64,000 nucleotides of DNA from IMG/VR virus record IMGVR_UViG_3300028283_000231. One strand, 5' to 3'. Positions 62,643-63,990 of this stretch are shown piece by piece. The translations under genes were made by a program, and so were the position numbers. The notes beneath the pieces were generated by a model. It was not told the origin of the DNA. It saw only the letters and a list, made by a program, of their open reading frames with translations, and made no database searches. Within the stretch, counting starts at the first letter, position 1. Each line of letters opens with the position of its first letter. The DNA is from a virus (taxonomy: Duplodnaviria > Caudoviricetes).

Positions 62643-62653
62643 AAAATATATAA
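62643..62653 (+). promoter_or_regulatory. Putative promoter of the leader/tRNA operon
   Basis: AAAATATATAA, variant of the late-type motif, 50 nt before the leader ATG. Confidence 0.5.
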
Positions 62654-62702
62654 AACAAAGACAAAAAGATAGAATACAAACAATATTAAAAAAATAGAAA
62701 TC

Positions 62703-62798
62703 ATGTTATACACATCTAAACATAGTAAACATTTTAGTTCATCATCCAAGTGGTTTACCACATTCGGGGTTGAAACGGATTTGCTATGTGTTAGCTGA
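62703..62798 (+). CDS. Putative attenuator leader peptide (31 aa)
   Basis: MLYTSKHSKHFSSSSKWFTTFGVETDLLCVS*; A-rich 5' UTR; stop 21 nt before a terminator. Confidence 0.65.
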   Translation: MLYTSKHSKHFSSSSKWFTTFGVETDLLCVS

Positions 62799-62856
62799 TA
62801 CAAACATAGTAATAACGGAAAACCCCGAACTCAAAAAGTTTGGGGTTTTTTGTTTT
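62763..62856 (+). promoter_or_regulatory. Antiterminator/terminator switch
   Basis: Terminator AAACCCCGAAC-TCAAAAA-GTTTGGGGTTT plus T tail (62820-62856); TTCGGGGTT (62763-62771) is the perfect complement of its 5' arm AACCCCGAA (62821-62829). Confidence 0.75.
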
Positions 62857-62874
62857 AATAAAGTTCTTAAAAAT

Positions 62875-62945
62875 ACGGGTGTAGCACAATGGCAGTGTGA
62901 CGGTCTCCAAAACCGCTGATGGGGGTTCGAATCCCTCCACCCGTG
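62875..62945 (+). tRNA. tRNA-Trp(CCA)
   Basis: Cloverleaf; loop CTCCAAA; T-loop TTCGAAT. Confidence 0.9.
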
Positions 62946-62979
62946 CAAAGTGTTCATTGAAATATTGATTTAATTTATT

Positions 62980-63095
62980 GGGGAAGTAGCTCAGTTGGTA
63001 GAGCAACGTAAAAACGTAATTTGGCATAAATTACTAACAGCAAAACAAAACGCCTTCTAAGCCGTTGGCCACTGGTTCGAGTCCAGTCTTCCCCT
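62980..63095 (+). tRNA. tRNA-Arg(TCT) with a 43-nt insertion (63009-63051) between positions 29 and 30
   Basis: GGGGAAG/CTTCCCC acceptor; removing the insert gives ACGGC-CTTCTAA-GCCGT. Confidence 0.75.
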
Positions 63096-63102
63096 CTTAT
63101 AT

Positions 63103-63176
63103 GGTGCTATTAGCTCAATCGGTAGAGCGCATGCCTGTGGAGCATGAGGCAATGGGATCGAAACCCATATAGCACC
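63103..63176 (+). tRNA. tRNA-His(GTG) with encoded G-1:C73
   Basis: 8-bp acceptor GGTGCTAT/ATAGCACC; loop CTGTGGA; atypical T-loop ATCGAAA. Confidence 0.85.
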
Positions 63177-63178
63177 CT

Positions 63179-63255
63179 GTGTTTGTAGCTTAATTGGTAT
63201 GAAAAGCGCAAGATTGTGACTCTTGTAGATACGGGTTCGACTCCCGCCAAACACC
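63179..63255 (+). tRNA. tRNA-His(GTG), second copy, no encoded G-1
   Basis: GTGTTTG/CAAACAC, C73; loop TTGTGAC. Confidence 0.8.
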
Positions 63256-63259
63256 CAAC

Positions 63260-63342
63260 TATGTAATGAAGTAGCTGAAACCAGATAACGCAACTGGTCT
63301 GCCTTCCAAACTCGGAGAGAGTCCGACTCACTTCATTACATA
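63260..63342 (+). ncRNA. Unclassified stem-closed RNA inside the tRNA array
   Basis: 13-bp terminal stem TATGTAATGAAGT/ACTTCATTACATA; internal ACCAG..CTGGT and TCGG-AGAGAGT-CCGA hairpins. Confidence 0.5.
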
Positions 63343-63345
63343 TAT

Positions 63346-63417
63346 GGTCGGGTAGCTCAGGGGTAGAGCGTCAGCCTGAAGAGCTGAGCGTCGGGGGTTC
63401 AATTCCCTCTCCGACCA
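63346..63417 (+). tRNA. tRNA-Phe(GAA)
   Basis: TCAGC-CTGAAGA-GCTGA; full cloverleaf. Confidence 0.9.
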
Positions 63418-63422
63418 CACAA

Positions 63423-63495
63423 GGTTCCGTAGCTCAATTGGCAGAGCACCACACTTTTAATGTGGGGGTTATGGGTTCGATTCCCATCGGGGCCA
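63423..63495 (+). tRNA. tRNA-Lys(TTT)
   Basis: CCACA-CTTTTAA-TGTGG; full cloverleaf. Confidence 0.9.
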
Positions 63496-63500
63496 CGAAA

Positions 63501-63572
63501 GCGGGAGTTCATGGTTCGAGTCCATGTGAGGGGTCGGCCGACCTTTATAGTGAAATGGTTATCATGCCCGCC
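63501..63572 (+). ncRNA. Circularly permuted, anticodon-less tRNA-Asp-like element
   Basis: 3' half (GCGGG, AGTT, T-arm CATGG-TTCGAGT-CCATG, acceptor ..AGGGGTC) precedes the 5' half (GACCTTT, D-arm GTGA-AATGGTTA-TCAT, CCCGC); linker GGCC. Confidence 0.7.
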
Positions 63573-63575
63573 ATT

Positions 63576-63661
63576 GGAGACACCTATTGGCGCAGTTAGC
63601 TACCTCGAAAATAGTGAAGTCGATGAGAGTCGATGTGAAGGTTCAACTCCTTCTGTCTCCG
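63576..63661 (+). tRNA. tRNA-Ser(CGA), shortened atypical D-arm
   Basis: GGAGACA/TGTCTCC, G73; loop CTCGAAA; long variable arm. Confidence 0.65.
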
Positions 63662-63722
63662 CAGGATTAGAGACTGTTATAATTTCATAGTACTACCATA
63701 TAAGGAAGCGTAGAAATTAAAT

Positions 63723-63807
63723 GGAAGATTGACTGAGTGGTCTATAGTGCACGCTTGGAAAGCGTGTGGGTGTAACAGCTCCACAGGTTCGAATCCTGTA
63801 TCTTCCG
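63723..63807 (+). tRNA. tRNA-Ser(GGA)
   Basis: CACGC-TTGGAAA-GCGTG; long variable arm; G73. Confidence 0.9.
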
Positions 63808-63815
63808 CAAAATAT

Positions 63816-63904
63816 GGAGAGTTGGCAGAGAGGTAATGCACCAGTTTGCTAAACTGCGGTCTGCGGTAGCACCAGCGGGGGTTCGATCCCCTCACTCTCC
63901 GCCA
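63816..63904 (+). tRNA. tRNA-Ser(GCT) with encoded CCA
   Basis: Loop TTGCTAA; long variable arm; ends GCCA. Confidence 0.9.
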
Positions 63905-63909
63905 AAAAT

Positions 63910-63990
63910 GTGGTTGTAGCTGAGACGGTTTAGCATCGGGTTGAAGCCCCGAGATAGGACAGGACGGTGGTTCGATTCCGCCCAATCACA
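63910..63990 (+). tRNA. tRNA-Phe(GAA), second copy, enlarged variable loop
   Basis: TCGGG-TTGAAGC-CCCGA; variable region GATAGGACAGGAC (AGGAC duplicated). Confidence 0.75.

What the first reader, a model, noticed from the sequence alone, without database searches (positions are those of the whole stretch)
62643..63990. Leader-peptide attenuator that appears to switch on the phage tRNA array when the same tRNAs run short
Seen: promoter-like motif, a 31-codon ORF (62703-62798), then an 11-bp terminator (62820-62856) directly before the first tRNA. Codons 21-23 (TTCGGGGTT) are the perfect 9-nt complement of the terminator 5' arm, so antiterminator and terminator are mutually exclusive. Leader residues 5-18 are SKHSKHFSSSSKWF, using only Ser, Lys, His, Phe and Trp. 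The array in the window encodes Trp, His x2, Phe x2, Lys and Ser x3, plus Arg. Established: this is the geometry of trp/his-type ribosome-mediated attenuation; anti-phage systems such as PrrC and PARIS destroy host tRNAs, and phage tRNAs can compensate. Inference: a ribosome stalled at about codon 16 or earlier leaves the antiterminator strand free, so the phage senses depletion of several host tRNAs and transcribes replacements in a feedback loop. Caveats: the array continues past the window, which could dilute the match, and TCA codons have no cognate tRNA in the window.
Basis: partly seen in the sequence, partly recalled or inferred. Interest (0 to 1): 0.92.

Follow-up and report, generated by a model that had tools for sequence, protein, structure and literature searches.

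The report
Leader-peptide attenuator gating phage tRNA genes
A 31-codon mini-gene spelled in Ser, Lys, His, Phe and Trp sits in a terminator/antiterminator RNA switch just before a huge phage's tRNA genes for those same amino acids, so the phage probably makes these tRNAs only when ribosomes read those codons slowly, a control I could not find described for tRNA genes.

Summary

**What is there**
- The window is 92% identical to the 735-kb "uncultured phage" LR756501.
- ORF 62703-62798, the terminator hairpin 62814-62854 and the 9-nt complement (62763-71 against 62821-29) are all present.
- They are conserved in LR756501 and in a more distant relative, IMG/VR UViG_3300042261_000762.
- In that distant relative the ORF keeps its frame, length and amino-acid set although its 5' half has diverged.

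**Decisive test**
- In the two relatives, four further tRNA arrays each have their own paralogous promoter, leader and terminator cassette.
- Each leader core uses only the amino acids of its own array:
  - Leu;
  - Ile/Cys/Asp/Asn/Tyr;
  - Met/Gln/Glu/Ile(AUA);
  - Arg/Thr/Val/Ala/Gly/Pro;
  - Ser/Lys/His/Phe/Trp in this window.
- All 53 normally typed tRNAs of the five LR756501 arrays fit their leader's set.
- Three different terminator-arm sequences each have a matching complement inside their own ORF.

**Folding**
- On transcripts cut before the terminator 3' arm, the antiterminator survives a ribosome on codons 2-16.
- It is lost once the ribosome moves further.

**Status**
- Nothing here is experimental. 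Translation, readthrough and the physiological signal are inferred.
- Seven literature searches found no description.
- This scan has already noted the same design on other phage DNA.

The parts
62502..62509 (+). TATCTTTG box (TAnnTTTG, like the -7 element of Bacteroidota promoters). It is part of an upstream module shared with some paralogous cassettes. Possible host-type promoter, low confidence.
   Evidence: Read from the sequences: TAAATTTG in LR756501 cassette E, TAATTTTG in UViG cassettes C and D. Resemblance to the Bacteroidota consensus is from my own knowledge and was not tested.
62537..62632 (+). 31-codon hydrophobic ORF upstream of the cassette promoter. Possibly a small membrane protein; function unknown and not needed for the switch.
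   Evidence: Against LR756501 it shows 3 synonymous and 1 non-synonymous change. A 23-codon hydrophobic ORF sits at the same place in the UViG.
62621..62652 (+). Conserved promoter-like element: an A6/T8 inverted repeat around GTGAC, then 13 nt, then ATATA(A).
   Evidence: Same motif and spacing in all 9 cassettes. Pattern GACWWTTTTN5AATATATA: 8 matches in the window against 0.89 expected, 0 of 100 shuffles reaching 8. 22 matches in LR756501 against 1 in the control. It is therefore a general promoter class of this phage. The transcription start is not mapped.
62703..62798 (+). Leader ORF, 31 codons, stop TGA.
   Evidence: Frame and length kept in LR756501 and in the UViG although the first 45 nt diverge. 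Ser5 is TCT in the window and AGT in the UViG.
62715..62756 (+). Regulatory run, codons 5-18 (SKHSKHFSSSSKWF), made only of the five amino acids of the array.
   Evidence: All five amino acids of the set occur. 12 of the 14 codons are readable by array anticodons seen in the window.
62713..62797 (+). Hairpin 1:2 (anti-antiterminator and likely pause hairpin). Core 62716-62729 (codons 5-9) pairs with 62780-62794.
   Evidence: Minimum-energy fold, (-21.2 kcal/mol, z = -2.0). No compensatory change; the helix ends are weakened in the UViG.
62763..62829 (+). Antiterminator: 62763-71 pairs with 62821-29, 62776-77 with 62816-17, and an inner hairpin pairs 62781-89 with 62804-12.
   Evidence: Minimum-energy fold of every transcript cut before the terminator 3' arm. 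Alone it is -26.5 kcal/mol, z = -6.15, with 0 of 200 shuffles as good. The same fold is found in the UViG. The inner hairpin uses the second copy of the 11-nt repeat AAACATAGTAA (62718 and 62802; 9 of 5000 shuffles).
62814..62856 (+). Intrinsic terminator: 18-bp hairpin (loop 62832-36) and T-run.
   Evidence: The tail GGGTTTTTTGTTTT is shared by the cassettes and by ordinary gene-end terminators of LR756501.
62863..62868 (+). GTTCTT box just after the terminator, conserved in most cassettes. Function unknown (processing site?).
Evidence: Not tested.
62875..62946 (+). tRNA-Trp(CCA), first gene of the array, 18 nt after the T-run.
62980..63095 (+). tRNA with a 43-45-nt insert in the anticodon arm (anticodon TCT or CTA). 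Not represented in the leader.
   Evidence: Rfam tRNA 51.3 bits; ARAGORN -i.
63104..63256 (+). Two tRNA-His(GTG) genes.
63346..63496 (+). tRNA-Phe(GAA) and tRNA-Lys(TTT).
63576..63662 (+). tRNA-Ser(CGA), a weak call.
   Evidence: ARAGORN only at -ps85. The LR756501 orthologue is called at the default threshold.
63723..63991 (+). tRNA-Ser(GGA), tRNA-Ser(GCT) and an 82-nt long-variable-arm tRNA with anticodon GAA. The array runs off the window.
   Evidence: These three genes have no counterpart in LR756501.

Best explanation
This is a ribosome-mediated (leader-peptide) transcription attenuator that gates a phage tRNA operon.

Proposed sequence of events:
1. Transcription starts at the conserved promoter-like box at about 62631-62652.
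2. The 31-codon leader is translated while RNA polymerase moves on.
3. If codons 5-18 (Ser, Lys, His, Phe, Trp) are decoded quickly, the ribosome runs into the 3' third of the ORF. There it covers the antiterminator strands. If there is no translation at all, hairpin 1:2 holds those strands instead.
4. In both cases the 18-bp terminator 62814-62854 forms and transcription stops 18 nt before tRNA-Trp.
5. If a ribosome stalls in codons 5 to about 16, it masks strand 1. Then 62763-71 pairs with 62821-29 over the inner hairpin, the terminator 5' arm is sequestered, and polymerase reads into the array.

The array products read the very codons that are tested. The loop would therefore adjust the supply of phage tRNAs to decoding demand.

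Shown: the anatomy, its conservation, the leader/array match across five cassettes, and the predicted folds.
Inferred: translation, kinetic competition, readthrough, and the feedback.
For: 1. Conservation of cassette A.
- It is 97-98% identical to LR756501 where flanking genes are 92% identical.
- In the UViG, whose flanks are about 74% identical, the ORF keeps frame and length. Its run SKHSKHSSFSSKWF keeps the same five amino acids despite many nucleotide changes, including TCT to AGT for Ser5.
- The switch strands are unchanged in the UViG.

2. Leader and array covary.
- LR756501 (66 Rfam tRNA matches) and the UViG (37 matches) hold arrays that are each restricted to a few amino acids.
- Each array is preceded by a paralogous cassette whose leader core uses just those amino acids: MIQEQMQQIQ before Met/Gln/Glu/Ile(UAU); YNDYCIND or YNINDCIYND before Ile/Cys/Asp/Asn/Tyr; 21 of 23 codons T/P/A/V/R/G before Arg/Thr/Val/Ala/Gly/Pro; 7 Leu codons covering all six Leu codons before five tRNA-Leu.
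- Every leader scores best against its own array.
- All 53 normally typed tRNAs of the five LR756501 arrays fit their leader's set.

3. Covariation across paralogues.
- Three different terminator 5'-arm cores (AACCCCGAA, CCCAATCA, ACCCACACCC) each have their complement in the 3' part of their own ORF.

4. Geometry.
- With the transcript cut before the terminator 3' arm, the antiterminator is the minimum-energy fold.
- It persists with the A-site on codons 2-16 and is lost from codon 18 to about codon 27. The pattern is the same in all 9 cassettes.
- Energies are -21.2 (1:2), -26.5 (antiterminator) and -23.5 (terminator) kcal/mol.

5. No room for a separate promoter.
- Only 18 nt separate the T-run from the first tRNA, and no sigma-70-like site is predicted there.

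6. The 14-residue run is unique in the window.
Against: - No expression data. The one RNA-library contig covers only 62944-63276 and may be DNA.
- At equilibrium the full-length RNA always folds into the terminator, whatever ribosome position is imposed. The switch must therefore be kinetic, as in trp, and that is assumed.
- No Shine-Dalgarno sequence precedes the leader. This is usual in Bacteroidota, the predicted host phylum of the largest huge phages (PMC7162821), but it is not evidence of translation.
- The codon-level match is imperfect. The two TCA codons have no cognate tRNA in the visible part of the array. In LR756501 and the UViG only Ser(CGA) is found, so none of the Ser codons is matched there.
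- The insert-bearing TCT/CTA tRNA is not represented in the leader.
- Within cassette A there are only three sequences and no compensatory substitution. The ends of hairpin 1:2 are weakened in the UViG.
- A conserved GTTCTT box after the terminator is unexplained.
- Amino-acid starvation would also induce the array, and extra tRNA would not help in that case.
Confidence: 0.8

Rival explanations
1. The hardware is the same, but the natural trigger is specifically host immunity that destroys tRNAs (anticodon nucleases of the PrrC, RloC or PARIS kind). On this reading the cassette is a counter-defence sensor rather than a general supply-and-demand regulator. It is a special case of the best explanation.
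For: The array is rich in Lys tRNAs in the relatives (4-5 of 10-12 genes). tRNA-Lys is the classical target of PrrC and PARIS (my own knowledge). Phage tRNAs have been proposed to replace cleaved host tRNAs (PMC10264068, from its abstract as listed).
Against: All 20 amino acids are covered by the five attenuated arrays. That looks like general decoding homeostasis rather than a response to one nuclease. No defence or anti-defence gene was linked to the cassette here. The host is unknown.
Confidence: 0.2
2. Translation-dependent control with a different output. Stalling on the leader might act through Rho, mRNA decay or processing of the pre-tRNA rather than by antitermination. Or the logic might be inverted, so that stalling means OFF.
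For: No direct evidence. It is considered because the full-length fold always prefers the terminator, and because an unexplained conserved GTTCTT box follows the terminator.
Against: In all nine cassettes the ORF carries the complement of the terminator 5' arm. The regulatory codons end just before a ribosome would cover it. This is the arrangement expected if stalling means ON through antitermination.
Confidence: 0.07
3. The ORF encodes a real 31-residue micro-protein with its own terminator. The tRNA array would then be transcribed independently, and the composition match would be incidental.
For: The ORF is conserved in frame and length. A strong terminator follows it.
Against: The order of residues in the run is not conserved, only the set: FSSSS against SSFSS here, YNDYCIND against YNINDCIYND in cassette C. 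Five of five cassettes match their arrays. The 3' third of the ORF is constrained at the nucleotide level, not the peptide level. There are only 18 nt for a separate promoter.
Confidence: 0.04
4. An untranslated structured 5' leader or small RNA. The ORF would be a chance frame and the terminator would merely end an sRNA or the upstream unit.
For: Strong predicted structure (z = -5.2 for 62690-62875). Weak sub-threshold Rfam matches are driven by the terminator (Thr_leader 34.9 bits against a cut-off of 55).
Against: The 14-residue run has a chance of about 2e-9 from the background frequency of the set, 0.239. It is the longest such run in the window. The frame is kept across diverged sequence. 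The same rule holds in four paralogous cassettes.
Confidence: 0.03

Closest known systems
Leader-peptide transcription attenuators of enterobacterial amino-acid operons (trpL, hisL, leuL, pheL; the multivalent thrL and ilvGMEDA leaders)
   Same: A short translated ORF with clustered codons of the sensed amino acids. A 1:2 hairpin, a 2:3 antiterminator and a 3:4 intrinsic terminator. Regulatory codons placed so that a stalled ribosome frees the antiterminator. Several amino acids sensed by one leader, as in thr and ilv.
   Different: The regulated genes are tRNA genes (with a TrpRS/TyrRS-family fragment inside the array in LR756501), not biosynthetic enzymes. The products themselves decode the tested codons, so the loop closes on decoding capacity. 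Five amino acids are sensed at once. The element is viral. No sequence homology: Rfam Thr_leader scores 34.9 bits against a cut-off of 55.
pheST attenuator of E. coli (Phe-rich leader controlling phenylalanyl-tRNA synthetase)
   Same: Leader-peptide attenuation applied to a gene of the translation apparatus rather than to biosynthesis (my own knowledge).
   Different: It controls a synthetase, senses a single amino acid and is cellular.
T-box riboswitches
   Same: They sense the state of a specific tRNA and switch a terminator/antiterminator upstream of genes for aminoacyl-tRNA supply.
   Different: T-boxes bind uncharged tRNA directly and need no translation. No T-box or other riboswitch family matched 61000-64000 at E up to 1.
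Phage tRNA arrays as described so far (huge phages with up to 67 tRNAs, PMC7162821; tRNAs proposed to compensate codon usage or to replace tRNAs cut by host defences, PMC10264068)
   Same: Same kind of cargo, and the same open question of why phages carry tRNAs.
   Different: These papers do not describe leader ORFs or attenuators. The word 'leader' does not occur in PMC7162821. The sorting of tRNAs into amino-acid-specific, separately gated operons was not found in seven full-text searches.

Membership tests
Ribosome-mediated (leader-peptide) transcription attenuator | Short ORF with a start codon on the same strand, upstream of and close to the regulated genes | tested here: met
   62703-62798. 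Conserved in frame and length in two relatives.
Ribosome-mediated (leader-peptide) transcription attenuator | Cluster of codons for the amino acid(s) to which the regulated genes relate | tested here: met
   14 consecutive codons of Ser, Lys, His, Phe or Trp before tRNAs for these five. The same rule holds in four paralogous cassettes.
Ribosome-mediated (leader-peptide) transcription attenuator | Intrinsic terminator between the leader and the regulated genes | tested here: met
   18-bp hairpin plus T-run, 62814-62856, -23.5 kcal/mol, z = -6.9. The simple scanner missed it; it lists no site on either strand.
Ribosome-mediated (leader-peptide) transcription attenuator | Antiterminator pairing mutually exclusive with the terminator | tested here: met
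   62763-71 with 62821-29 plus an inner hairpin, -26.5 kcal/mol, z = -6.15. Three different helix sequences co-vary among paralogues.
Ribosome-mediated (leader-peptide) transcription attenuator | Anti-antiterminator (1:2) hairpin overlapping the regulatory codons | tested here: inconclusive
   Predicted: 62716-29 with 62780-94, -21.2 kcal/mol, but z is only -2.0. Its ends are weakened in the UViG and there is no compensatory change.
Ribosome-mediated (leader-peptide) transcription attenuator | A ribosome stalled at the regulatory codons leaves the antiterminator free, and a ribosome further on blocks it | tested here: met
   Constraint folds with a footprint of -15 to +13 nt around the A-site. 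The antiterminator is intact for codons 2-16 and lost for codons 18 to about 27, in all 9 cassettes. This is a model, not a measurement.
Ribosome-mediated (leader-peptide) transcription attenuator | Readthrough depends on leader translation and on charged-tRNA supply | not testable with these tools
   Needs a reporter assay, in vitro transcription-translation or Term-seq. The RNA library run was uninformative.
T-box riboswitch | Specifier loop and conserved T-box sequence (Rfam T-box model) | tested here: not met
   No T-box match at E up to 1 in 61000-64000.
Rfam Thr_leader (RF00506) | Score at or above the gathering threshold of 55 bits | tested here: not met
   34.9 bits over 62781-62854, essentially the terminator.

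The most novel reading that the evidence does not exclude
The phage divides all 20 amino acids among five tRNA operons, each behind its own multi-codon leader sensor. Together they would form a distributed homeostat of decoding capacity whose outputs, the tRNAs, are the molecules being sensed. It would measure tRNA supply rather than amino-acid supply. It would let the phage take over decoding as host tRNAs are depleted or cleaved during infection.
Probability: 0.5. Interest if true: 0.93.

Novelty: new variant of a known kind. Interest (0 to 1): 0.88.

Why it matters
Why phages carry tRNA genes has been debated for decades. The proposals include codon compensation, replacement of degraded host tRNAs and evasion of anticodon nucleases.

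A built-in sensor that turns each tRNA operon on when its own codons are read slowly would be direct genetic evidence that the tRNAs are there to relieve decoding shortage. It would also make the question testable with a simple reporter.

It would extend a textbook mechanism, trp-type attenuation, in three ways:
- to a new class of target, RNA genes;
- to a new logic, in which the product is the sensed molecule;
- to viruses.

It explains why tRNA genes in these huge phages are sorted by amino acid. It gives a practical rule for finding operon boundaries and small translated ORFs in phage tRNA regions. The leaders could also serve as compact, programmable multi-codon sensors of translation capacity.

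Tried and rejected
- **Flanking protein search.** The search for related loci with the flanking 119-aa protein in viral contigs found no relative.
- **Palindromic pattern.** The pattern TTCGGGGTT-N30-60-AACCCCGAA in viral contigs gave 27 loci. The pattern is a palindrome, and apart from the UViG they are unrelated inverted repeats.
- **Metagenome scan.** A peptide-level degenerate pattern gave 18 loci, all chance matches inside unrelated, mostly GC-rich genes. Cassette A is therefore known from only three lineages.
- **Equilibrium folding.** Folding the full-length leader with a ribosome footprint showed no switch, because the terminator always wins. I moved to transcripts cut before the 3' arm to model kinetic competition.
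- **Other terminator-tail sites.** Two further exact copies of the terminator tail in LR756501 (about 590.4 kb and 628.9 kb) turned out to be ordinary gene-end terminators, not attenuators.
- **Minus-strand ORF.** The 69-codon frame 62594-62803 overlapping the leader is not conserved.
- **Public sequencing runs.** The hits are lake and freshwater metagenomes. The one RNA library holds only a contig over 62944-63276, which shows neither termination nor readthrough.
- **Cultured model phage.** Flavobacterium phage vB_FspM_immuto was checked. It has four scattered tRNAs and no obvious cassette in its annotation, so I dropped it.
- **No covariance model.** Three near-identical sequences of cassette A give no within-family covariation, and the paralogues differ too much in length for a trustworthy alignment. 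The cross-paralogue evidence is therefore the duplex table.
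Full report
**1. Observation**

- ORF 62703-62798 is a 31-codon ATG frame. Its codons 5-18 read SKHSKHFSSSSKWF.
Its loop is 62832-36 and the T-run ends at 62856.
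- Folded alone, the terminator is -23.5 kcal/mol, z = -6.9.
- TTCGGGGTT at 62763-71 (codons 21-23) is the exact complement of 62821-29.
- Only 15 of 5000 dinucleotide shuffles of the upstream 111 nt contain a complement of 9 nt or more to the 5' arm.

The tRNA-Trp gene starts at 62875, 18 nt after the T-run. Behind it come, in order:
- a tRNA with a 43-45-nt insert in the anticodon arm, typed CTA in the window and TCT in LR756501;
- His x2, Phe and Lys;
- a weak Ser(CGA);
- Ser(GGA) and Ser(GCT);
- a long-variable-arm tRNA with a GAA anticodon.

**2. What the DNA is**

The stretch 61300-64000 is 92% identical to the 735-kb record LR756501 / LR756503, "uncultured phage". This is the size of the largest genome in Al-Shayeb et al. 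2020. That paper places its largest phages in the Mahaphage clade, with predicted Bacteroidetes hosts and up to 67 tRNAs (PMC7162821). The word "leader" does not occur in that paper. Public runs holding the stretch are lake and freshwater metagenomes.

**3. Conservation of this cassette**

Against LR756501:
- The stretch 62440-62950 is 97% identical, while flanking genes are 92% identical.
- The switch region 62712-62945 shows a single change, in a loop.

A more distant relative is IMG/VR UViG_3300042261_000762, whose flanking genes are about 74% identical.
- It keeps an ORF of the same length and frame.
- Its first 45 nt differ at many positions, yet the run becomes SKHSKHSSFSSKWF, with the same five amino acids.
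- Ser5 changes from TCT to AGT, and two Ser/Phe blocks are exchanged.
- From 62746 to 62856 there are only about six differences. All lie outside the paired strands or at helix ends.

The 5' half therefore evolves under a constraint on which amino acids are encoded. The 3' half evolves under a constraint on nucleotides. This is what a leader peptide in an RNA switch should look like, and not what a functional micro-protein should look like.

**4. The decisive test: other arrays**

Rfam tRNA searches of the two relatives gave 66 matches in LR756501 and 37 in the UViG, in several clusters. ARAGORN typing shows that each cluster is restricted to a few amino acids:

| Array | Amino acids of the tRNAs |
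|---|---|
| A | Trp, His, Phe, Lys, Ser |
| B | Leu only |
| C | Ile(GAU), Cys, Asp, Asn, Tyr |
| D | Met, Gln, Glu, Ile(UAU) |
| E | Arg, Thr, Val, Ala, Gly, Pro |

Together these are all 20 amino acids.

Each array is preceded by a paralogous cassette: the same promoter-like box, a short ORF, and a terminator with the same T-rich tail. The ORF cores are:
- D: MIQEQMQQIQ in LR756501 and MIQEQMQQM in the UViG.
- C: YNDYCIND and YNINDCIYND. Here a ribosomal L7/L12-like gene lies between the attenuator and the first tRNA.
- E: 21 of 23 codons are T, P, A, V, R or G.
- B: 7 of 21 codons are Leu, using all six Leu codons.

Further results:
- In a leader-by-array matrix every leader scores best on its own array.
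- Every amino acid of each set occurs in its leader.
- All 53 normally typed tRNAs in the five LR756501 arrays belong to their leader's set.
- In the window, the 14-residue run is the longest set-A run in the whole six-frame translation. The next longest are 9 residues and lie in the A/T run at about 62440-62465.
- At codon level, 110 of 133 matching leader residues use codons readable by array anticodons under simple wobble. Most failures (16 of 23) are Ser codons of cassette A.

**5. The RNA switch**

The free leader folds into a long 1:2 hairpin plus the terminator.
- The core of 1:2 pairs 62716-29, which is codons 5-9, with 62780-94.
- The whole fold is -47 kcal/mol, z = -5.2.

Transcripts cut before the terminator 3' arm fold differently.
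- They form an antiterminator: 62763-71 with 62821-29, then 62776-77 with 62816-17, over an inner hairpin 62781-89 with 62804-12.
- Folded alone it is -26.5 kcal/mol, z = -6.15.
- The inner hairpin exists because AAACATAGTAA occurs twice, at 62718 and at 62802 (9 of 5000 shuffles). Strand 62781-89 can therefore pair either backwards (1:2) or forwards.

I then imposed a ribosome footprint of -15 to +13 nt around the A-site.
- The antiterminator stays intact for A-site codons 2-16.
- It weakens at codons 17-18 and is lost up to about codon 27.
- The same relation between regulatory codons and antiterminator holds in all nine cassettes.

Three different sequences of the terminator 5' arm each have their complement in the 3' part of their own ORF. 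They are AACCCCGAA in cassette A, CCCAATCA in B, C and D, and ACCCACACCC in E. This is covariation across paralogues.

At equilibrium the complete RNA always prefers the terminator. As in the trp operon, the decision has to be kinetic.

**6. Surroundings**

- The box GACWWTTTT-N5-AATATATA (62631-52) has fixed spacing in all cassettes.
- It occurs 8 times in the window against 0.89 expected, and 22 times in LR756501 against 1 in the control. It is a general promoter-like motif of this phage, not one specific to tRNA cassettes.
- The terminator tail also occurs at ordinary gene ends.
- In LR756501 the array behind cassette A also holds a 237-residue class I Trp/Tyr-type synthetase fragment (Pfam tRNA-synt_1b, E = 1.6e-35) and two endonuclease-like ORFs.
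- The window ends inside the array.

**7. Mechanism**

- Shown: the anatomy, its conservation, the leader/array match and the alternative folds.
- Inferred: the leader is translated. Fast decoding, or no translation, lets the terminator form. A ribosome stalled in codons 5 to about 16 frees the antiterminator and polymerase reads into the array. Because the products decode the tested codons, the circuit would be a negative feedback on decoding capacity.
- Open: whether the natural trigger is codon demand, decay of host tRNAs, nuclease attack or amino-acid starvation.

**8. Comparison with known systems**

It works like the enterobacterial leader-peptide attenuators, and especially like the multivalent thr and ilv leaders. 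By architecture it meets the testable defining features of that class. The 1:2 hairpin is only weakly supported, and functional dependence on translation cannot be tested here.

It is not a T-box and not a member of any Rfam leader family.

The difference lies in the target (tRNA genes), in the closure of the loop through the product, and in the viral setting.

**9. Prior knowledge**

Seven full-text searches found no description of leader-peptide attenuation of tRNA genes.

This scan, however, has seen the design before on other DNA. 113 notes in at least 88 genomes hold the search words. Several were followed up with the same conclusion.

Unchecked first-stage notes on this same genome report the Leu and the Thr/Pro/Ala/Val/Arg/Gly leaders outside my window. 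I reached the paralogous cassettes before reading these notes. They agree with my reading but are not independent evidence.

**10. Caveats**

- There are no expression data.
- Cassette A is known from three lineages only.
- The Ser codon mismatch is unexplained.
- The insert-bearing tRNA is not represented in the leader.
- The GTTCTT box is unexplained.
- The footprint model is simple.

Noticed in passing
window 62980-63095; also LR756501 loci L047 (rc, just upstream of 7814) and L048 (rc, upstream of 11845); L053 about 4540-4580: Several tRNA-like genes in the arrays carry a 40-45-nt insert in the anticodon arm. The insert has a short hairpin followed by a conserved ACAGCAA(A/C)ACAAAAC-like motif. 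It is too short for a group I intron. Depending on where the insert is cut, the anticodon reads TCT (Arg) or CTA (amber suppressor).
   Followed up: partly
window 63910-63991: An 82-nt tRNA with a long variable arm (type II, as in Ser, Leu and Tyr tRNAs) but a GAA (Phe) anticodon. No counterpart in LR756501; only its T-arm region matches the UViG.
   Followed up: partly
window 63497-63575 and 63261-63340: Two unassigned stretches inside the array. The first is 74 nt, absent from LR756501, with a tRNA-like T-arm and a CCA-like end but a scrambled order of arms. The second is about 80 nt closed by a 12-bp stem. Neither is called as a tRNA.
   Followed up: no
L051 3586-3739 (LR756501 about 690.6 kb) and L001 12536-12626: LR756501 carries two tRNAs with a CTA anticodon (amber suppressors, labelled Pyl by ARAGORN). 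It also has a long-arm tRNA that ARAGORN reads with a TTA or 4-nt TTAC anticodon. These hint at stop-codon suppression or recoding in this phage lineage.
   Followed up: no
window 5711-5967 (- strand); L049 2718-3091: ARAGORN calls a tRNA-Pro(GGG) and tRNA-like genes with only a 2-nt 'anticodon' (ta). They are conserved between the window and LR756501 and lie outside the five attenuated arrays.
   Followed up: no
L048 4960-5331 (- strand) and L053 8094-8462: A ribosomal protein L7/L12-like gene, judged by its C-terminal domain sequence read by eye, lies between the attenuator of the Ile/Cys/Asp/Asn/Tyr array and its first tRNA. It would therefore be under the same attenuator.
   Followed up: no
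L001 11722-12435: A 237-residue class I Trp/Tyr-type aminoacyl-tRNA synthetase fragment (Pfam tRNA-synt_1b, E = 1.6e-35) lies inside the Trp/His/Phe/Lys/Ser array of LR756501. Endonuclease-like ORFs flank it at 10533-11366 and 12995-13870.
   Followed up: partly
window 62537-62632: A 31-codon hydrophobic ORF lies just upstream of the cassette promoter. It shows 3 synonymous and 1 non-synonymous change against LR756501, and a similar 23-codon ORF sits in the UViG. Possibly a real small membrane protein.
   Followed up: partly
window 62863-62868 and the same place in most paralogous cassettes: A conserved GTTCTT(T) box lies a few nt after the attenuator's T-run. In some cassettes TTGAAATA follows it. 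Function unknown: a processing site, a pause site or a promoter element.
   Followed up: no
window 60225-61241 (- strand): A PfkB-family carbohydrate kinase (Pfam E = 7.6e-27) is encoded just upstream of the tRNA region.
   Followed up: no
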